Positions 1-64,000 of a DNA stretch of 64,000 nucleotides are shown here, piece by piece; position 1 is the stretch's first letter; each line of letters begins with the position of its first letter. The stretch is taken from assembly GCA_965237955.1 (NCBI GenBank), contig OZ250169.1, positions 5,632,001 through 5,696,000 of the forward strand, written 5' to 3'. The notes beneath the pieces were generated by a model. The model made no database searches, was not told the origin of the DNA, and saw only the letters and a program-made list of their open reading frames with translations. Source of the DNA: Candidatus Marinacidobacterales bacterium. Lineage in GTDB: Bacteria; Acidobacteriota; Vicinamibacteria; Marinacidobacterales; SMYC01. Made by a program: the position numbers and the translations under genes.

Positions 1-99
1 GCGGGTAGCGTGTTTCGTGAATGCTCGGTGTGGTTCGGAATTGCGCTTGTGAAAAAGAAGTTCGGTTCTCCTGTCGTTTCGGGGGATCTGATTTGTGTT

Positions 100-421
100 G
101 GAGGGCATGGCCTATGGACGCTGCCGCGATTGTGGAAAACGCCGGAAACTCCGGGCGAGAGAGGCGTTTAGGGAAAGGTTGTGAGCACGTACAAACGTGG
201 AGCGGCGTTTTCCACAATCGCTTGGAAAACGCTTCGCGTTTCCCACGAGCGCCCACAGGCCCCTCCTGATATATATACAAGAAAGATTAATTCATATGGA
301 ATAAGGAAGGGGGGGCTCGATTAGTGGAGGCTATGGAAAACGCCCTTCCAGGCTTCGAAGAGAACTCAGTCGTGAGCAAGGTCTGAACGACCAGAACCGT
401 GGGGGCGTTTCCCACAGCCTC
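100..421 (-). other. Structured non-coding leader of the ISL3 (two long hairpin domains; candidate ncRNA or protein-binding array)
   Basis: Perfect 19-bp IR at 126-144/203-221; stems at 110-122/248-260, 223-245 and 327-345/403-421; AT-rich linker 267-305. Confidence 0.55.
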
Positions 422-546
422 GTCTCCCGCTGAGGGGCAGTGGCATTTGGTGAGGCCCGTGGGTTGAGAGGGTAAGCCATGTGTAGATGCGCATCGGCGA
501 GAACGCTAGAATCTTTTTTTCCGAAAGAGAAAAGAGCGTTCCCGCG

Positions 547-1767
547 ATGCGCGTTACTACGTTAGTCAACAAGCTCATCGGATTGCAAGGCCTGTGGGTC
601 CGAGGTTTCCACTTCCAGGCGGACAAAGCCAGAGTGGTGGTGGATGTAGTACCACGGAGGAGGAAGCCTCTGTGCGGGATTTGCGGACGAAAGGTCCGCA
701 AGAACAAAGATCGCTACAATCGCTACTGGCGGCACTTGGACCTGTTCGGAGTCCGGACCTATCTTCGCTACTCGATCCGACGAGTGGTATGTCGGCGGTG
801 TGGAGTGGTCAGAGAAAAGGTGCCTTGGGCCGACAAGGGAAGCCGCTTTACCAAAAGCTTCGAACAAGAGGTAGCGTGGCTGGCACAGAGGACGGACGTC
901 AGCGCCGTAGCGAACTATTTCCGAGTGACGTGGCGTTCGGTGCGACGGATCATCCAGCGAGTGGTTGCCGAGCAGCGGGATGAGCGGCGCGAGCTCGATG
1001 GATTGCGGGTGATTGGGATGGACGAGATCAGCTACCGCAAACGCCACAAGTACTTAACAGTGGTAATAGACCATCTCAGCGGCCGGGTCGTCTGGGCGGG
1101 AAAGGAGCGCAAGGCCAAGACGCTGCTGCGGTTTTTCCGCAAGCTCGGACCACAAAGAGCCGCGGAGCTCGAAGCGGTCAGCATGGACATGTGGGAGCCG
1201 TACATAACTGTCGTCGGCAAAAAGGCTCCTCAGGCACGGGTGATCTTTGACCGCTTCCACATCGTCAAGCATCTGAACGAGGCCGTGGATAAGACCCGGC
1301 GCGAGCTGGTGCGCGAGCTCAAAGGGACTGCCCGGCGCAACCTCAAGAACACCAAGTTTCCCCTTCTCAAGGCCAAACACAACCGCAGCGCGAAAGACAA
1401 ACGGGTGCTCCGCGAGCAGGTGCGAGCTAATCGTCGCCTCTACCGCGCCATGCTTCTGCGCGACGACTTCATGGACCTCTACACCTACAAAACCGAGACA
1501 TGGGCCAAGAAGTTTCTCCGAGGATGGCTGCGGCGCGCTATGAGCTCGAGGATAGAGCCCGTCAAACGCGCGGCGAAGATGATCCGCAGCCACTTCGATG
1601 GCGTCATCGCGTGGGTCACGTGGAGACTCAGCAACGGCCGACTCGAAGGAATGAACAACAAAATCCGGCTGCTGAGCCACCGCAGCTTTGGACTCCACTC
1701 TGCCGAAGCTCTCATCAGTCTCGTCTACCTAAACTGTGGCGGTCTCACCCTCGAGAGGATCCACTGA
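547..1767 (+). CDS. ISL3 family transposase
   Basis: CxxC...CxxC zinc finger, IGMDE, SMDMW, IFDRFH and SNGRLEGMNNKI motifs; likely start MRVTT at 547 (ORF opens at 487). Confidence 0.95.
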   Translation: MRVTTLVNKLIGLQGLWVRGFHFQADKARVVVDVVPRRRKPLCGICGRKVRKNKDRYNRYWRHLDLFGVRTYLRYSIRRVVCRRCGVVREKVPWADKGSRFTKSFEQEVAWLAQRTDVSAVANYFRVTWRSVRRIIQRVVAEQRDERRELDGLRVIGMDEISYRKRHKYLTVVIDHLSGRVVWAGKERKAKTLLRFFRKLGPQRAAELEAVSMDMWEPYITVVGKKAPQARVIFDRFHIVKHLNEAVDKTRRELVRELKGTARRNLKNTKFPLLKAKHNRSAKDKRVLREQVRANRRLYRAMLLRDDFMDLYTYKTETWAKKFLRGWLRRAMSSRIEPVKRAAKMIRSHFDGVIAWVTWRLSNGRLEGMNNKIRLLSHRSFGLHSAEALISLVYLNCGGLTLERIH

Positions 1768-1964
1768 AATGGCAGGAGAGGCAGAAGTTCTTCACTTCCG
1801 TTTGGCCGGGTCTTGGTTGGCAATGTGTTGTCTTCCGTTTAAGTCTATTTGTGTCATAGCGTTGGGTGCCGGCGGTTTCAGCGTGTGAACGAGAAGCTGC
1901 GCGTTCGCATTTTCGCCTTGACAGAGTCAAGGTGCGCTATTAATGTCTCACTCGGGGATGGTTG

Positions 1965-40227: not shown

Positions 40228-40373
40228 TCGGTGTGCAGCTTTTTTTCTGGAAAAGAAAAGATCACCGCAGAGGCGCAGAGGACGCAAAGGAAACGCAACT
40301 CTACCGGTGATTCTTGGTTGCGGTGTCGCTGCGCTGTGTCTCTGTGGTCAAATCTTTTGCCTCTCCTGCCATT

Positions 40374-41591
40374 TCAGTGGATCCTCTCGAGGGTGAGACC
40401 GCCACAGTTTAGGTAGACGAGACTGATGAGAGCTTCGGCAGAGTGGAGTCCAAAGCTGCGGTGGCTCAGCAGCCTGATTTTGTTGTTCATTCCTTCGAGT
40501 CGGCCGTTGCTGAGTCTCCACGTGACCCACGCGATGACGCCATCGAAGTGGCTGCTCATCTTCGCCGCGCGTTTGACGGGCTCTATCCTCGAGCTCATAG
40601 CGCGCCGCAGCCATCCTCGGAGAAACTTCTTGGCCCATGTCTCGGTTTTGTAGGTGTAGAGGTCCATGAAGTTGTCGCGCAGAAGCATGGCGCGGTAGAG
40701 GCGACGATTAGCTCGCACCTGCTCGCGGAGCACCCGTTTGTCTTTCGCGCTGCGGTTGTGTTTGGCCTTGAGAAGGGGAAACTTGGTGTTCTTGAGGTTG
40801 CGCCGGGCAGTCCCTTTGAGCTCGCGCACCAGCTCGCGCCGGGTCTTATCCACGGCCTCGTTCAGATGCTTGACGATGTGGAAGCGGTCAAAGATCACCC
40901 GTGCCTGAGGAGCCTTTTTGCCGACGACAGTTCTGTACGGCTCCCACATGTCCATGCTGACCGCTTCGAGCTCCGCGGCTCTTTGTGGTCCGAGCTTGCG
41001 GAAAAACCGCAGCAGCGTCTTGGCCTTGCGCTCCTTTCCCGCCCAGACGACCCGGCCGCTGAGATGGTCTATTACCACTGTTAAGTACTTGTGGCGTTTG
41101 CGGTAGCTGATCTCGTCCATCCCAATCACCCGCAATCCATCGAGCTCGCGCCGCTCATCCCGCTGCTCGGCAACCACTCGCTGGATGATCCGTCGCACCG
41201 AACGCCACGTCACTCGGAAATAGTTCGCTACGGCGCTGACGTCCGTCCTCTGTGCCAGCCACGCTACCTCTTGTTCGAAGCTTTTGGTAAAGCGGCTTCC
41301 CTTGTCTGCCCAAGGCACCTTTTCTCTGACCACTCCACACCGCCGACATACCACTCGTCGGATCGAGTAGCGAAGATAGGTCCGGACTCCGAACAGGTCC
41401 AAGTGCCGCCAGTAGCGATTGTAGCGATCTTTGTTCTTGCGGACCTTTCGTCCGCAAATCCCGCACAGAGGCTTCCTCCTCCGTGGTACTACATCCACCA
41501 CCACTCTGGCTTTGTCCGCCTGGAAGTGGAAACCTCGGACCCACAGGCCTTGCAATCCGATGAGCTTGTTGACTAACGTAGTAACGCGCAT
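40374..41591 (-). CDS. ISL3 transposase of the outer copy (ORF intact but cut off from its leader)
   Basis: Near-identical to 547-1767; KMIRSH becomes KMSSH (3-bp loss), plus I>R and D>N changes. Confidence 0.9.
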   Translation of the reverse strand: MRVTTLVNKLIGLQGLWVRGFHFQADKARVVVDVVPRRRKPLCGICGRKVRKNKDRYNRYWRHLDLFGVRTYLRYSIRRVVCRRCGVVREKVPWADKGSRFTKSFEQEVAWLAQRTDVSAVANYFRVTWRSVRRIIQRVVAEQRDERRELDGLRVIGMDEISYRKRHKYLTVVIDHLSGRVVWAGKERKAKTLLRFFRKLGPQRAAELEAVSMDMWEPYRTVVGKKAPQARVIFDRFHIVKHLNEAVDKTRRELVRELKGTARRNLKNTKFPLLKAKHNRSAKDKRVLREQVRANRRLYRAMLLRDNFMDLYTYKTETWAKKFLRGWLRRAMSSRIEPVKRAAKMSSHFDGVIAWVTWRLSNGRLEGMNNKIRLLSHRSFGLHSAEALISLVYLNCGGLTLERIH

Positions 41592-42591
41592 CGCGGGAAC
41601 GCTCTTTTCTCTTTCGGAAAAAAAGATGGTTCTCCTGTCGTTTCGGGGGATCTGATTTGTGTTGGAGGGCATGGCCTATGGACGCTGCCGCGATTGTGGA
41701 AAACGCCGGAAACTCCGGGCGAGAGAGGCGTTTAGGGAAAGGTTGTGAGCACGTACAAACGTGGAGCGGCGTTTTCCACAATCGCTTGGAAAACGCTTCG
41801 CGTTTCCCACGAGCGCCCACAGGCCCCTCCTGATATATATACAAGAAAGATTAATTCATATGGAATAAGGAAGGGGGGGCTCGATTAGTGGAGGCTATGG
41901 AAAACGCCCTTCCAGGCTTCGAAGAGAACTCAGTCGTGAGCAAGGTCTGAACGACCAGAACCGTGGGGGCGTTTCCCGCAGCCTCGTCTCCCGCTGAGGG
42001 GCAGTGGCATTTGGTGAGGCCCGTGGGTTGAGAGGGTAAGCCATGTGTAGATGCGCATCGGCGAGAACGCTAGAATCTTTTTTTCCGAAAGAGAAAAGAG
42101 CGTTCTCGCGATGCGCGTTACTACGTTAGTCAACAAGCTCATCGGATTGCAAGGCCTGTGGGTCCGAGGTTTCCACTTCCAGGCGGACAAAGCCAGAGTG
42201 GTGGTGGATGTAGTACCACGGAGGAGGAAGCCTCTGTGCGGGATTTGCGGACGAAAGGTCCGCAAGAACAAAGATCGCTACAATCGCTACTGGCGGCACT
42301 TGGACCTGTTCGGAGTCCGGACCTATCTTCGCTACTCGATCCGACGAGTGGTATGTCGGCGGTGTGGAGTGGTCAGAGAAAAGGTGCCTTGGGCAGACAA
42401 GGGAAGCCGCTTTACCAAAAGCTTCGAACAAGAGGTAGCGTGGCTGGCACAGAGGACGGACGTCAGCGCCGTAGCGAACTATTTCCGAGTGACGTGGCGT
42501 TCGGTGCGACGGATCATCCAGCGAGTGGTTGCCGAGCAGCGGGATGAGCGGCGGAACGTGTCAACAACTTTGAGACACCCGCGGACTGCAT

Positions 42592-43731
42592 TTAGTGAGC
42601 CTCAATCAATGCAGTAAGACTCGTGGGCCCGGGGCGGTCACCGTCTGCGTGCGGCGAGATCTGGTCGCGTTGGCCTGAATCCGGGGGTACCCCAGGTGTG
42701 GACCACCTTGAGAAAGTGGCTCCGGCGGCCTCCTGGCGCGTCGTTTTCTCCGGCGGCGGGTTGATCCAGGCCTGAGGAGGCAAAACGGGGGGCTGTGGCA
42801 TTCCGCGAACGAAGCGTTCGGGATGAGCCCGATGAGCTTCGAGGAGGATTTGGCGCCGGGCAGTGGTGAGCTGTTCCGCGAGACCATCGTGAACGGCGGC
42901 CGGTGTCATGATGCCGATTCCCGAGTGCCGGCGTTCGTGATTGTAGTAGTCGAGGAAGCCGCCGCAGAACAGCCGGCCGTCTTCGATGGAACCAAAACGG
43001 CTCGGAAACTGAGGGCAATACTTCAGAGTCTTGAACTGGGACTCGGAGTAGGGGTTATCGTTCGAGACGTAAGGTCTGGAGTGGGTCTTGGTAACGCCGA
43101 GGTCAGCCAGGAGCATAGCTACGGACTTGCTTCGCATCGAGCTGCCACGGTCGGCGTGGATGGTGAGCTGGTCTGGTTCGATGTTCTGTTTGCGGCAGCT
43201 CTCGCTGATGAGACGACGAGCGAGCTCAGCGCTTTCTCGTCGAGCCAACATCCACCCGGTCACGTAACGGGAGAAGATGTCCAGAATCACGTAGAGGTAG
43301 TAGTAGGTCCACTTGACGGGGCCACGCAGCTTGGTGATATCCCACGACCAAACCTGGTTCGGCGCTTCGGCCAGCAGCTCCGGCTTTTGATAATTCGGAT
43401 GTCGCAGCTGGTTCCGGCGCTCTCGGACCTCTCCGTTCTCCGCCAGAATCCGATACATCGTGCGGATCGAGCAGTAGTAGATTCCCTCGTCCAGGAGCGT
43501 GGCCCACACCTGAGCGGGCGCCTTGTCGACGAACCGCTCGGAGTGCAAGGCACCGAGAACCAGCTCACGTTCGGTCACATCGAGGGCTCGGTGCGACCGA
43601 GGGCGGCGTTTCGCATTGGACGTTACCGTCTGGCGCCTGCGATACAACGTGGAGCGAGCTATTCCAAGGGCCTCGCAGGCTTCCGCCGTCTGTCCAATTC
43701 GTCCCGCCAGCTCCTCGGCCGCCACCATCAA
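42592..43731 (-). CDS. DDE integrase-type transposase (OrfB)
   Basis: PNQVWSWDIT, LDIFSRY, HADRGS and NDNPYSESQF motifs. Confidence 0.92.
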   Translation of the reverse strand: MMVAAEELAGRIGQTAEACEALGIARSTLYRRRQTVTSNAKRRPRSHRALDVTERELVLGALHSERFVDKAPAQVWATLLDEGIYYCSIRTMYRILAENGEVRERRNQLRHPNYQKPELLAEAPNQVWSWDITKLRGPVKWTYYYLYVILDIFSRYVTGWMLARRESAELARRLISESCRKQNIEPDQLTIHADRGSSMRSKSVAMLLADLGVTKTHSRPYVSNDNPYSESQFKTLKYCPQFPSRFGSIEDGRLFCGGFLDYYNHERRHSGIGIMTPAAVHDGLAEQLTTARRQILLEAHRAHPERFVRGMPQPPVLPPQAWINPPPEKTTRQEAAGATFSRWSTPGVPPDSGQRDQISPHADGDRPGPTSLTALIEAH

Positions 43732-44195
43732 TCGTTCTCGTCGCTGTCTGGTGGATTCAGGGGGATCCCCAGAAGTTCGGAGGTTTTTTTTTGGATCTCT
43801 AGCATCGTCTCCACCCGAGCCAGGCGATGCTTCAATCGCGCGTTCTCGCGCTCGAGCTCCTTGACCCGTGGATCCTCTGCCTTCGCCTTCCGTCCTCGCT
43901 TCCTCGATGTCAACCCCGCCTTGGCAATCTTGTCACGTTGGCGACGCCAACTCGAAAGATGCGACGAGTACAGTCCCTCTCGACGCAGAAGAGCCGCAAC
44001 ATCCCCGTCACCCTTGCAAGCATCGGCCTCGCGCACTATCCGCAGCTTGTACTCTGCGGTAAAGCGTCGACGCTTCGCTTGCTCACTCACTTCGGGATCC
44101 GGGACCCCTGCCGCATCGCGGCCGGCGCGATCTGCAGTCGCCCTACGGGCTCCTTTCGATCCCGCCGGGGTCATTCTCTCAATCAACGTAGTCAT
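43728..44195 (-). CDS. Transposase OrfA (HTH plus coiled coil)
   Basis: RRRFTAEYKLRIV, LLRREGLYSSHLSSWRRQ; 4-bp overlap with orfB. Confidence 0.9.
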   Translation of the reverse strand: MTTLIERMTPAGSKGARRATADRAGRDAAGVPDPEVSEQAKRRRFTAEYKLRIVREADACKGDGDVAALLRREGLYSSHLSSWRRQRDKIAKAGLTSRKRGRKAKAEDPRVKELERENARLKHRLARVETMLEIQKKTSELLGIPLNPPDSDEND

Positions 44196-45525
44196 TCATG
44201 ATCCTCCTCCGCCCTCTACACTAATTTCAAGGGGCGAAGTGTCTCAAGGAGGTTGGCACAGAGGGCGGCGCGAGCTCGATGGATTGCGGGTGATTGGGAT
44301 GGACGAGATCAGCTACCGCAAACGCCACAAGTACTTAACAGTGGTAATAGACCATCTCAGCGGCCGGGTCGTCTGGGCGGGAAAGGAGCGCAAGGCCAAG
44401 ACGCTGCTGCGGTTTTTCCGCAAGCTCGGACCACAAAGAGCCGCGGAGCTCGAAGCGGTCAGCATGGACATGTGGGAGCCGTACATAACTGTCGTCGGCA
44501 AAAAGGCTCCTCAGGCACGGGTGATCTTTGACCGCTTCCACATCGTCAAGCATCTGAACGAGGCCGTGGATAAGACCCGGCGCGAGCTGGTGCGCGAGCT
44601 CAAAGGGACTGCCCGGCGCAACCTCAAGAACACCAAGTTTCCCCTTCTCAAGGCCAAACACAACCGCAGCGCGAAAGACAAACGGGTGCTCCGCGAGCAG
44701 GTGCGAGCTAATCGTCGCCTCTACCGCGCCATGCTTCTGCGCGACGACTTCATGGACCTCTACACCTACAAAACCGAGACATGGGCCAAGAAGTTTCTCC
44801 GAGGATGGCTGCGGCGCGCTATGAGCTCGAGGATAGAGCCCGTCAAACGCGCGGCGAAGATGATCCGCAGCCACTTCGATGGCGTCATCGCGTGGGTCAC
44901 GTGGAGACTCAGCAACGGCCGACTCGAAGGAATGAACAACAAAATCCGGCTGCTGAGCCACCGCAGCTTTGGACTCCACTCTGCCGAAGCTCTCATCAGT
45001 CTCGTCTACCTAAACTGTGGCGGTCTCACCCTCGAGAGGATCCACTGAAATGGCAGGAGAGGCAAAAAGATTCTAGCGTTCTCGCCGATGCGCATCTACA
45101 CATGGCTTACCCTCTCAACCCACGGGCCTCACCAAATGCCACTGCCCCTCAGCGGGAGACAAGGCTGTGGGAAACGCCCCCACGGTTCTGGTCGTTCAGA
45201 CCTTGCTCACGACTGAGTTCTCTTCGAAGCCTGGAAGGGCGTTTTCCATAGCCTCCACTAATCGAGCCCCCCCTTCCTTATTCCATATGAATTAATCTTT
45301 CTTGTATATATATCAGGAGGGGCCTGTGGGCGCTCGTGGGAAACGCGAAGCGTTTTCCAAGCGATTGTGGAAAACGCCGCTCCACGTTTGTACGTGCTCA
45401 CAACCTTTCCCTAAACGCCTCTCTCGCCCGGAGTTTCCGGCGTTTTCCACAATCGCGGCAGCGTCCATAGGCCATGCCCTCCAACACAAATCAGATCCCC
45501 CGAAACGACAGGAGAACCAATCTTT

Positions 45526-46365
45526 TTAAGACCGATTCAAGCCCCAGTCGTAGTCTCGAAACTTCACGCTAACGCTATCGCTGTGAGCGGCAACCAACTC
45601 ACGCACTTCCGCCGTCGCGTACTTCGCGATGAACTCTTGCAGGCTCCTCTCGGAGCCGATGTACTCCGGATCGACGAAGTCGCTTCCGTACCAATCCATG
45701 ATCTTGCTGACCAGTAGCGTGTCGCCGTCGACGGAGACGTAGTCGGGGTTGGTCAGCGCGTTTTTGCTGACGGTGTCGAGTTGTTCGTCGATCTCATCTC
45801 CGGTGAACGCGCGCGTCGGTAGCGGAGGGCACGAGATCGACGCGCAGTTCACTGCGAAGTGGAAGCGCGGGTCTTTGAACAGCGGGCGCAGTACGTTGTG
45901 CTCCATGTTGTCGAGGCTCAACAAAAAGCTGCCAACGGTATGGTCCTTACGCCCGAAGACGTCGGGAACGTCCCGGATGCTCTGGATATCGAAAGCTCCA
46001 TCGGCGCTCACGTGGTCCAAGATCGTGGCAATGGTGTACGCGTTGTAGGCGTTGGCGAACAACGCTTGAATCTCGTTCGATGACAACGCGGACAGATCCG
46101 CGTCGGCGAGCGCGCCGAGGTAGGCGTCGAACTGTTCCTCATCGGCTTTGAGCCCGGCGTAGTCGAACCGACGCCCGCCGTCCTTGGCGTGTCTTTGCAC
46201 GAGCTCATCCCAAGAGGAGTGGTCGAAGCGCGCCGAGCCGTCCTCGATGCCGTGCGCGAGGACCGAGGAGAGGTCTCCGCCAATCGGTGCGGCACGCGGA
46301 GCGCCGCACGCCGCGCTCGTCACCGCGACGAGCCCCGCCAAGAGCCCCGCCAAGAAACGTCCCAT
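45526..46365 (-). CDS. DUF547 domain lipoprotein
   Basis: NAYNAYTI, SLDNMEH, DPRFHFAVNCASISCPPL, SKIMDWY and YDWGLN motifs; lipobox-like SAAC. Confidence 0.88.
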   Translation of the reverse strand: MGRFLAGLLAGLVAVTSAACGAPRAAPIGGDLSSVLAHGIEDGSARFDHSSWDELVQRHAKDGGRRFDYAGLKADEEQFDAYLGALADADLSALSSNEIQALFANAYNAYTIATILDHVSADGAFDIQSIRDVPDVFGRKDHTVGSFLLSLDNMEHNVLRPLFKDPRFHFAVNCASISCPPLPTRAFTGDEIDEQLDTVSKNALTNPDYVSVDGDTLLVSKIMDWYGSDFVDPEYIGSERSLQEFIAKYATAEVRELVAAHSDSVSVKFRDYDWGLNRS

Positions 46366-61244: not shown

Positions 61245-61415
61245 CTAAGTTTCTTCCAGTCCCCGTGCGCCTGTCCCTCCCCGACGAGGTTCGCTGAAAA
61301 GGTAAAAAAGGGGACAGGGACTACTTTGCCAGATGGTCACAAAGGCGCAAACAAAAGCACACGACACGACCTCCGTGCGTCCATCGCCTGTTGAGTGAAC
61401 CACGGTGCGCGCGCC

Positions 61416-63058
61416 CCTCTGTGCCAACCTCCTTGAGACACTTTGCCCCTTGAAATTAGTGTAGAGGGCGGAGGAGGATCATGAATGACTACGTTGATTG
61501 AGAGAATGACCCCGGCGGGATCGGAAGGAGCCCGTAGGGCGACTGCAGATCGCGCCGGCCGCGATGCGGCGGGGGCCCCGGATCCCGAAGTGAGTGAGCA
61601 AGCGAAGCGTCGACGCTTTACCGCGGAGTACAAGCTGCGGATGGTGCGCGAGGCGGATGCCTGCAAGGGTGACGGCGATGTTGCAGCTCTTCTGCGTCGA
61701 GAGGAACTGTACTCGTCGCATCTTTCGAGTTGGCGTCGCCAACGTGACAAGATTGCCAAGGCGGGGTTGACGTCGAGAAAGCGAGGCCGGAAGGCGAAGG
61801 CAGAGGATCCACGGGTCAAGGAGCTCGAGCGCGAGAACGCCCGACTCCAACGTCGCCTGGCTCGGGTGGAGACGATGTTGGAGATCCAAAAAAAAGCCTC
61901 CGAACTGCTGGGGATCCCCCTGAATCCACTAGACAGCGACAGGACCGACTGATCGTGGCGGCCGAGGAGCTGGCGGGGCGGATTGGGCAGATGGCGGAAG
62001 CCTGCGAGGCTCTGGGTGTGGCTCGTTCCACGTTGTATCGAAGGCGCCGGCCGGTGACGTCCAAACCGAAGCGTCGTCCTCGGCCGCACCGAGCCCTCGA
62101 CGAGACCGAGCGCGAGGAGGTCCTCGGAACCTTGCACTGTGAGCGGTTCGTCGACAAGGCGCCCGCTGAGGTGTGGGCCACGCTCCTGGACGAGGGAATC
62201 TAATACTGCTCGATCCGCACGATGTATCGGATTCTGGCGGACAACGGAGAGGTCCGAGAGCGCCGGAACCAGCTGCGACATCTGAGTTATCAAAAGCCGG
62301 AGCTGCTGGCCGAAGCGCCGAACCAGGTTTGGTCGTGGGACATCACCAAGCTTCGTGGCCCGGTCAAGTGGACCTACTACTACCTCTATGTCATCCTCGA
62401 CATCTTCTCCCGCTACGTGGTTGGCTGGATGCTGGCTCACCGAGAAAGAGCGGCGCTCGCCCAACGCCTCATCGCCGAGAGCTGTCGCAAGCAGGACATT
62501 GAACCCGACCAGCTCACCCTTCACGCGGACCGTGGCAGCTCGATGAGAAGCAAGCCCGTGGCTCTGCTCCTGGCTGACCTCGGAGTTACCAAGACCCACT
62601 CCAGACCTTACATCTCGAACGACAATCCCTACTCCGAGTCCCAGTTCAAGACGATGAAGTACTGTCCTCAGTTTCCGAGCCGTTTTGGTTCCGCCGAAGA
62701 CGGCCGGCTGTTCTGCTGCGGTTTCTTCGACTACTACAACTACGAGCACCGGCACTCAGGAATCGGCTTCATGACGCCGGCCGACGTTCACTATGGTCGA
62801 GCCGAACAGCTCACCACCGCTCGGCGCCAGATCCTTCTCGAAGCTCATCGGACTCATCCCGAACGCTTCGTTCGCGGAACGTCACAACCTCCCGTTTTGC
62901 CTCCTCAGGCTTGGATCAACCCGCCGCCGGAGAAAACGACGCTCCTGGAGGCCGCACAAGCCAGTCTCGCGGCGGCGTCCATACCTGGGGCACCCCCTTT
63001 TTCTGCTCCACTAAACGAGATCTCGATCGATGCAGATGTGGACCGCACTGGCGTCACG
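61416..63058 (+). mobile_element. IS3-like element, copy B (diverged relative of 42554-44264), right part interrupted by another IS
   Basis: Same left end cctctgtgccaacctccttgagacac; orfA and orfB homologous; right IR not in window. Confidence 0.88.
61485..61952 (+). CDS. Transposase OrfA
   Basis: Near-identical to 43728-44195. Confidence 0.88.
   Translation: MTTLIERMTPAGSEGARRATADRAGRDAAGAPDPEVSEQAKRRRFTAEYKLRMVREADACKGDGDVAALLRREELYSSHLSSWRRQRDKIAKAGLTSRKRGRKAKAEDPRVKELERENARLQRRLARVETMLEIQKKASELLGIPLNPLDSDRTD

Positions 63059-63108: not shown

Positions 63109-64000
<892 letters not shown>

What the first reader, a model, noticed from the sequence alone, without database searches (positions are those of the whole stretch)
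100..421. ISL3 carries a ~480-bp non-coding leader with a strand-specific structured-RNA signature
Seen: two long stem domains lie between the left IR and the transposase ATG. They are a perfect 19-bp IR (126-144/203-221) plus a hairpin (223-245) inside an outer stem (110-122/248-260), and a second 19-bp stem (327-345/403-421) reusing a TRTGGRAAACGCC motif. All five mismatches I found in these stems are A-C on the + strand, i.e. G-U wobbles on the - strand. The leader recurs at 41628-42110 and, inverted, at 45072-45518. Known: ISL3 are DDE elements with no RNA cofactor that I know of, whereas IS110 and IS200/605 families encode structured RNAs in their non-coding ends. Inference: a structured RNA (or ssDNA) read opposite to the transposase, possibly an IS-encoded regulatory or targeting RNA, or a captured palindromic passenger. 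Caveat: the near-identical copies give no covariation evidence, and one variant at 41978 goes the other way.
Basis: partly seen in the sequence, partly recalled or inferred. Interest (0 to 1): 0.8.

Follow-up and report, generated by a model that had tools for sequence, protein, structure and literature searches.

The report
Replication-origin mimic hidden in jumping gene
The hairpins are real, but they are predicted to fold as single-stranded DNA rather than RNA: they rebuild the bacterial chromosome's replication-start signal inside this and several unrelated jumping genes, likely so that the host's initiator protein starts copying the element once one strand is exposed.

Summary
In detail: the stems and 5 of 5 A-C/G-T mismatches are as stated, in a 1,719-bp ISL3 with 53 near-full copies in the genome. 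The RNA reading is not supported. The hairpins are an accessory, covarying three-way-junction module, absent from the nearest transposase clade and also found beside IS21, IS481, IS110, IS3 and conjugation genes. Its loops are DNA-type cGNAg triloops (37 of 67 GNA against 3 on the other strand), not RNA tetraloops. Its stems are DnaA boxes followed by a spacer of about 4 nt and DnaA-trios (26 of 44, null 2%), the layout seen at the predicted oriC of Acidobacteriota. Box position 4 is T at oriC (69/83), mostly C in the module's duplex (95/134), and T again, usually opposite G, in the folded strand (58/59). Best reading (0.6, inferred): an origin mimic that works only on single-stranded DNA, an A-site/ABC-primosome-like priming signal. 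No function was tested, and the window's own first copy has a degenerate trio-side box.

The parts
64..1782 (+). ISL3 element, 1,719 bp, ends GGTTCTCCTG / CAGGAGAGGC, 8-bp target duplication AGAAGTTC (56-63, 1783-1790)
   Evidence: 53 near-full copies in G000, AT-rich targets
547..1767 (+). ISL3 transposase, 406 aa (zinc ribbon, HTH, DDE)
   Evidence: Pfam PF14690, PF13542, PF01610
110..260 (-). Module 1: three-way junction predicted to fold on the - strand (P1 110-122/248-260, P2 126-144/203-221, P3 222-247)
   Evidence: model R1 88 bits (the model was trained on this copy); covariation
131..216 (.). P2 DnaA box pair TGTGGAAAA (131-139) / TTTTCCACA (208-216), the commonest box at Acidobacteriota oriC
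231..237 (-). d(GCGAAGC) mini-hairpin capping P3 (GAA triloop, 233-235)
   Evidence: sequence; PMC13037366 passages
263..271 (-). DnaA-trio-like tail of module 1 (two good 3'-G(A/C)N-5' trios and one NAN); the adjacent P1 box (249-257) is degenerate, 4 mismatches
266..306 (.). AT-rich linker (76% AT in a 60% GC genome), placed like an unwinding region beyond the trios
327..421 (-). Module 2: single long stem with box TATGGAAAA (332-340) / TTTCCCACA (408-416), two G-T pairs on the - strand
417..432 (-). 4-nt spacer (417-420) and trio-like tail (421-432; G every third base on -, middle bases C, A, G, A)
   Evidence: sequence
487..546 (+). Part of the leader that is conserved across the clade: GCGCA box, TAGAAT hexamer and Shine-Dalgarno; likely the transposase promoter
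   Evidence: not found by the sigma-70 consensus scan
41628..42110 (+). Second copy of the leader (nested insertion into another copy; later interrupted by another IS)
45064..45518 (-). Third copy of the leader, cut at the self-insertion site

Best explanation
The leader carries two copies of a portable DNA module that is predicted to fold only on one exposed strand and then would present DnaA boxes with a single-stranded DnaA-trio tail, likely letting host DnaA load the helicase and prime a complementary strand. Shown: conserved, covarying three-way junction; one-strand polarity; DNA-type triloops; box + 4-nt spacer + trio layout identical to predicted host oriC; patchy spread over unrelated IS families and conjugation regions. 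Inferred: (1) in duplex DNA the trio-side boxes carry C at position 4 and bind DnaA poorly, so the element is not an ectopic origin; (2) in the folded strand the partner arm supplies T4 in a G-T pair and the trios hang as a 5' tail, a pre-melted origin; in the consensus module a second tandem box is completed across the junction; (3) DnaA oligomerises, loads helicase, primase primes, as at the A site of the ABC primosome; (4) this serves the strand displaced in copy-out transposition, or a conjugatively transferred strand.
For: Covariation: 93.5% of cells paired, 17 of 35 pairs with double-sided change, 0/500 shuffles, slid controls <=56% (20 modules). G-T 113 vs A-C 6 at model pairs (44 modules). 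Triloops 37/67 GNA on the folding strand vs 3 on the other; tetraloops GNRA 1 and UNCG 3 of 34; only GNA loops form the DNA mini-hairpin, and the RNA counterpart tested (a GAAA tetraloop) is far less stable (PMC13037366, passages). TTTTCCACA is 19 of 34 near-consensus boxes downstream of dnaA in 30 Acidobacteriota genomes; 11 of 30 show box + 4-5 nt + trios. Three or more trios in 26/44 modules vs 2.1% null, spacer mode 4, middle base A52 C32 G7 T5; C, but not G or T, can replace the central A (PMC10721633, passages). Position 4: oriC T 69/83; module duplex C 95/134; folded 3' arms T 58/59. Host DnaA keeps N187, I190, I193, R202, E228. A BLAST with one module hit the DNA just downstream of dnaA in Nonomuraea. 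Neighbours IS21, IS3, IS110, IS256 and ISL3 are listed as circle-forming (10.1101/2023.06.07.543989, passages). An IRR-5 bp-IRL junction exists in a related genome (L166).
Against: No binding, priming or transposition data. DnaA binding to a box with a G-T pair is untested. Most ISL3 relatives lack the module (10 of 84 loci hit), so it is dispensable. In ISL3 and IS110 the folding strand is either strand, so it does not map to one fixed circle strand. In the window's module 1 the trio-side box has 4 mismatches and only two good trios. 18 of 44 modules lack three trios; in a tail-free held-out set only 7 of 17 passed (5.4% background). The model and alignment A3 were trained on or fitted to this structure. 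28 of 57 module loci had no transposase, ssb or conjugation gene recognised nearby (many at contig ends). Alphaproteobacterial copies have T in the trio middle; this is offset only weakly by an aromatic residue replacing N187 in 3 of 3 alphaproteobacterial DnaAs from other genera.
Confidence: 0.6

Rival explanations
1. An ssDNA hairpin signal read by another protein (primase, PriA-type restart factor, or an HUH/nuclease that also moves it between elements); the DnaA-like letters are ancestral leftovers from an origin.
For: GNA mini-hairpins occur at primase-dependent phage and plasmid priming sites (PMC13037366); the G-every-third tail could also be read as repeated primase start triplets (recalled, not tested); the fixed G-T pair could be a mark for a non-DnaA reader.
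Against: The box, the 4-nt spacer and the A/C-only trio middle match DnaA chemistry and host oriC in detail; no dedicated nuclease or primase gene recurs beside the modules.
Confidence: 0.16
2. A duplex-DNA site: inverted DnaA boxes that titrate DnaA, regulate transposition or act as a weak ectopic origin or cruciform.
For: P2 holds two perfect boxes in the duplex; the + strand has box-spacer-trio-AT-rich order; 50+ copies could titrate DnaA.
Against: A duplex or cruciform role does not need G-T over A-C bias or GNA loops on one strand only; trio-side boxes carry C at the invariant T4 (consensus TTWTNCACA in PMC5043019, passage).
Confidence: 0.1
3. A structured RNA (antisense regulator or transposase guide) transcribed from the - strand.
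For: Covariation and G-U polarity fit RNA as well; the leader is present in RNA libraries (contig 64-590, depth 18-25 in three runs of one study); six modules lie in IS110 non-coding ends.
Against: DNA-type triloops and no RNA tetraloop enrichment; either orientation within ISL3; shared by unrelated transposases and non-IS regions; no target- or donor-complementary loop seen; no promoter found; no Rfam match.
Confidence: 0.07
4. A neutral or selfish palindromic passenger (REP/MITE-like) with no benefit to the IS.
For: Patchy on the tree, dispensable, swapped between elements; other palindromic inserts fill the same slot.
Against: In G000 it occurs only inside ISL3 copies plus one other site; stems stay conserved while loops drift in orthologous leaders; specific origin-like letters are kept across phyla.
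Confidence: 0.07

Closest known systems
A site of the ABC primosome (ssDNA hairpin with a DnaA box; Masai 1990, 1995, seen only as described in PMC6127211 passages)
   Same: DnaA box in the stem of an ssDNA hairpin; predicted helicase loading and priming on single-stranded DNA
   Different: The A site has a single box; here two or three boxes in a three-way junction, a fixed G-T pair, GNA caps and a DnaA-trio tail; carried inside insertion sequences; activity untested
Basal unwinding system (BUS) of oriC: tandem DnaA boxes, GC-rich spacer, DnaA-trios (PMC8287927, PMC10721633)
   Same: Same order, same 4-nt spacer, same strand for trios, same A/C middle-base rule; same box sequence as host-phylum oriC
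   Different: oriC works as a duplex that DnaA melts; here the duplex form has C at box position 4 and the intact form appears only after intrastrand folding; located in mobile elements
Single-strand initiation signals of plasmids and phages (ssi, Frpo, G4 origin; PMC7690428, PMC13037366 passages)
   Same: Strand-specific DNA hairpins, GNA mini-hairpins, presence in conjugation regions and after ssb
   Different: No -35/-10 duplex as in Frpo; origin-type boxes and trios instead; mostly in IS ends
IS110 bridge/seek RNA and IS200/605 end structures
   Same: Structured non-coding sequence in an IS end
   Different: Not tied to one transposase family or orientation, dispensable, no guide loops seen

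Membership tests
ISL3 family insertion sequence | ISL3 DDE transposase | tested here: met
   PF01610 E 8e-71
ISL3 family insertion sequence | Terminal inverted repeats, about 8-bp duplication, AT-rich targets | tested here: met
A site / ABC primosome | DnaA box within the stem of an ssDNA hairpin | tested here: met
   by sequence and predicted fold only
A site / ABC primosome | DnaA-, helicase- and primase-dependent priming on SSB-coated ssDNA | not testable with these tools
   needs biochemistry
A site / ABC primosome | Sequence homology to the original R6K A site | not tested
   primary paper not held; sequence not available from a tool
oriC basal unwinding system | DnaA box within 16 bp of three or more NAN trios | tested here: inconclusive
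   family: 26/44 with A/C middle; window module 1 has three NAN but a 4-mismatch proximal box, module 2 has middles C, A, G, A
oriC basal unwinding system | Chromosomal origin that DnaA unwinds as a duplex | tested here: not met
   lies in mobile elements; predicted oriC is separate at dnaA-dnaN; duplex boxes carry C4; unwinding itself not assayed
IS-encoded guide RNA (bridge/seek RNA type) | Conserved with its own transposase family in fixed position and orientation | tested here: not met
IS-encoded guide RNA (bridge/seek RNA type) | Discrete transcript bound by the transposase | tested here: inconclusive
   only unstranded contigs available
REP/MITE-type free repeat | Many stand-alone intergenic copies in the genome | tested here: not met
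   61 of 62 strong model hits in G000 lie in ISL3 copies; the other is one site at C1:991038

The most novel reading that the evidence does not exclude
Insertion sequences of many families trade a cassette that is a host-tuned, single-strand-gated copy of oriC: dead in the chromosome because of one T-to-C change per box, switched on by folding, and used to recruit DnaA and the replisome for the replication step of copy-out transposition. Its trio letters co-vary with the host DnaA residue that reads them.
Probability: 0.42. Interest if true: 0.87.

Novelty: new variant of a known kind. Interest (0 to 1): 0.72.

Why it matters
How the displaced strand of a copy-out transposon is primed is poorly understood for most IS families. 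This module gives a concrete cis-element, host protein and mutations to test. It would also be a natural example of DnaA-trios used outside oriC and of a binding site gated by DNA folding. Practically, such modules mimic structured RNAs in covariation screens, and the GNA-triloop test separates them. Five literature searches aimed at such an element and one on ssi signals returned no description in listings and abstracts; subscription journals and ISfinder text were not searchable.

Tried and rejected
Rfam scans: nothing. The genome-contig scan was saturated by 78 near-identical copies from two related genomes and gave no divergent leaders. The viral protein scan found one distant relative without the module. 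RNA contigs cannot show strand, ends or level; their leader coverage is not used as evidence of a transcript. A search for circle junctions in DNA sequencing runs returned no result, so free circles of this element remain unshown. Promoter scan: none. First idea that polarity relative to the transposase is fixed in ISL3 was rejected. The model does not hit oriC regions strongly (best E 0.0013 in 30 loci), so oriC itself is not folded this way. The tree is the quick version; five frameshifted rows have long branches and were ignored. In one search, 6 of 23 rows duplicated training modules and were dropped before the 7/17 count. One dnaA locus from a genome marked unpublished (G024) was left out of all analyses; that genome counts only as a miss in the tally. 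The primary A-site paper and the DnaA-box crystal structure paper were not held. The BUS supplement row for Bradyrhizobium was low-scoring and did not test the T-middle tails; the file was cut when stored.

Full report
Observation. The - strand of 100-425 folds much better than shuffles (z -7.9) and better than the + strand (z -3.6). The host is a 1,719-bp ISL3 (64-1782) with a 406-aa DDE transposase, an 8-bp duplication here and AT-rich targets; 53 near-full copies lie in the 8.1-Mb genome. The copies are about 99.7% identical and give almost no covariation; the contrary variant at 41978 is in 1 of 56 copies. In four more diverged orthologous leaders the stems hold while loop inserts drift; of the 10 stem changes seen, 6 give G-T on the - strand, 2 give G-T on + at terminal pairs, 1 breaks a pair and 1 is a gap.

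It is an accessory, not part of ISL3. Metagenome relatives at 61-69% transposase identity mostly have 183-185-bp leaders that keep only the left end, a GCGCA/TAGACT-type element and the ribosome site. A covariance model built from 20 modules hit none of the 12 such loci searched, and 10 of 84 ISL3-relative loci in all (E<1e-5). On a quick transposase tree those hits fall in at least five separate lineages whose sisters lack it (L058 and L072 are not on the tree). Within ISL3 the folding strand is antisense in the window's clade, L058, L003, L029 and L021, and sense in L005, L022, L110, L072 and L347; the last two lie downstream of the gene.

It is widespread beyond ISL3. A tail-free pattern matched 32 of 400 other genomes of the phylum (reversed control: 2 matches), and the model 57 of 149. 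Of 57 distinct loci examined, 26 had a transposase or an IS end nearby and 3 an ssb or virD4-virB11 pair; the rest had nothing recognised, many being contig ends. Families, with plasmid locus L364 added: IS21 nine times and IS481 four times, always downstream with the antisense strand folding; IS110 six times in mixed arrangement; also IS3-type, IS256, IS6-like and DDE_Tnp_1. Plasmids of Acidisarcina, Granulicella, Bradyrhizobium and Acidiphilium carry it. G000 has one non-ISL3 copy, before a truncated ORF that resembles an IS3-type orfA by eye.

The structure is conserved, and it is DNA-like. On the MAFFT alignment of 20 modules, 93.5% of cells pair, 17 of 35 pairs show double-sided change, no shuffle of 500 reaches this, and slid partners fall to 56% or less; 44 further modules behave alike, though that alignment is model-fitted. 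All three stems carry a G-T pair at the same position (13/19, 13/20, 15/20). With a strand-symmetric definition, 37 of 67 triloops are GNA on the folding strand (35 closed by C-G) against 3 on the other; of 34 tetraloops 1 is GNRA and 3 UNCG. A review passage reports that of all GCNNNGC fragments only GNA forms the stable DNA mini-hairpin, that an RNA counterpart tested (a GAAA tetraloop) is far weaker, and that such loops sit at phage and plasmid priming sites (PMC13037366, passages). The window's P3 is exactly GCGAAGC.

The conserved letters copy oriC. Downstream of dnaA in 30 Acidobacteriota genomes, TTTTCCACA is the commonest box (19 of 34), and 11 of 30 show box, 4-5-nt spacer and CTA-type repeats. 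This is the basal unwinding system: tandem boxes, spacer of about 4 bp, trios 3'-GAT-5' (PMC8287927, passages). The modules have the same order: three or more trios in 26 of 44 (null 2.1%), spacer mode 4, middle base A 52, C 32, G 7, T 5 (the model includes the tail, so this is partly circular; the tail-free held-out count is 7 of 17 against 5.4%). DnaA accepts C but not G or T at that base, read by Asn187 (PMC10721633, passages), and the host DnaA keeps all five trio-contact residues; N187 is present in 26 of 29 Acidobacteriota DnaAs. Independently, BLAST with module L110 hit the DNA just after dnaA in Nonomuraea, and a Bacillus origin region shows the same 9-mer, 8-mer, 4 nt, trios string.

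The switch. Position 4 of the box is invariant T in the E. coli consensus (PMC5043019, passage) and T in 69 of 83 oriC boxes here. In the modules' duplex, boxes facing the trios have C (95 of 134); on the folded strand the pairing arm has T (58 of 59), opposite G in 63 of 88 arms. So the origin motif is damaged in duplex DNA and restored, with trios as a 5' single-stranded tail, only when the strand folds. That scaffold (box plus 5' trio tail) is what assembles DnaA oligomers in vitro. In the consensus module the second box is completed across the junction, P3 supplying TTTTCCA and P1 the final CA. That C4 silences the duplex and that G-T is tolerated are inferences.

Mechanism. The nearest known system is the A site, an ssDNA hairpin with one DnaA box that loads helicase for priming (PMC6127211, passages). 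ISL3, IS3, IS21, IS110 and IS256 are listed as forming circles, presumably by copy-out (10.1101/2023.06.07.543989, passages), in which one IS strand is displaced and needs a complement. For IS21 and IS481 the module lies where displacement of the folding strand would begin; for the window's ISL3 it lies at the far end, and ISL3 polarity is mixed, so either end would have to serve as donor, or the benefit comes during conjugative transfer. A tandem with right and left ends 5 bp apart in a related genome is compatible with a circle-type junction.

Against. Nothing functional was measured; most relatives do without it; the window's module 1 has a degenerate proximal box; some lineages lack trios; alphaproteobacterial copies have T-middle tails, though three alphaproteobacterial DnaAs from other genera have Y, F or W at position 187, which hints at host tuning on a very small sample. 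RNA libraries contain the leader but only as unstranded contigs from one study.

Verdict. A real, conserved, mobile ssDNA module; works like an A-site priming signal built from the oriC unwinding module; membership of the ABC-primosome class is untested. An earlier AI note on another genome reached the DnaA-box hairpin reading; I had recorded that reading before seeing it, and it is not counted as evidence.

Noticed in passing
window 510-518; 41619-41627; 45064-45072: The ISL3 inserts into its own leader at the T-run just after the TAGAAT hexamer: at least three nested cases in G000 (C1:4091023, 5673627, 5677064), which would separate a copy from its left end and modules.
   Followed up: partly
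L166:1002-1029: Right end and left end of two ISL3 copies abut with a 5-bp spacer in a related genome (11 bp in L167); resembles a circle or dimer junction.
   Followed up: partly
L039, L004, L088, L100, L107, L062, L065, L074, L102, L106 (upstream of the transposase): Other palindromic inserts, several with GNA triloops or GGGTGAGG arms, occupy the same slot of ISL3 leaders; cGNAg loops are 13 of 62 short hairpins in leaders vs 25 of 498 in coding regions. Possibly alternative ssDNA signals.
   Followed up: partly
G000:C1:991038-991222 (L360:2039-2223): A closely similar module (same TATATAT-CAG-GAG tail) sits before a truncated ORF resembling an IS3-type orfA, suggesting recent exchange between IS families in this lineage.
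   Followed up: partly
L369:1501-1629, L371:1501-1625, L198:1437-1566: The module without any IS: between virD4 and virB11 in conjugation clusters, and right after an ssb gene on the ssb sense strand.
   Followed up: partly
L341, L354, L378, L388, L391, L364:3925-3994: The module lies in non-coding ends of IS110-family elements, where bridge/seek RNAs are expected; it could be mistaken for, or embedded beside, those RNAs.
   Followed up: no
window 63516-63629: Rfam ALIL pseudoknot (frameshift signal), 100.8 bits.
   Followed up: no
window 40354-45527: Nest of three ISL3 copies plus an IS3-type element (42554-44272, related copy at 61408-63058); an IS200 tnpA follows the first copy at 2000-2452.
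   Followed up: partly
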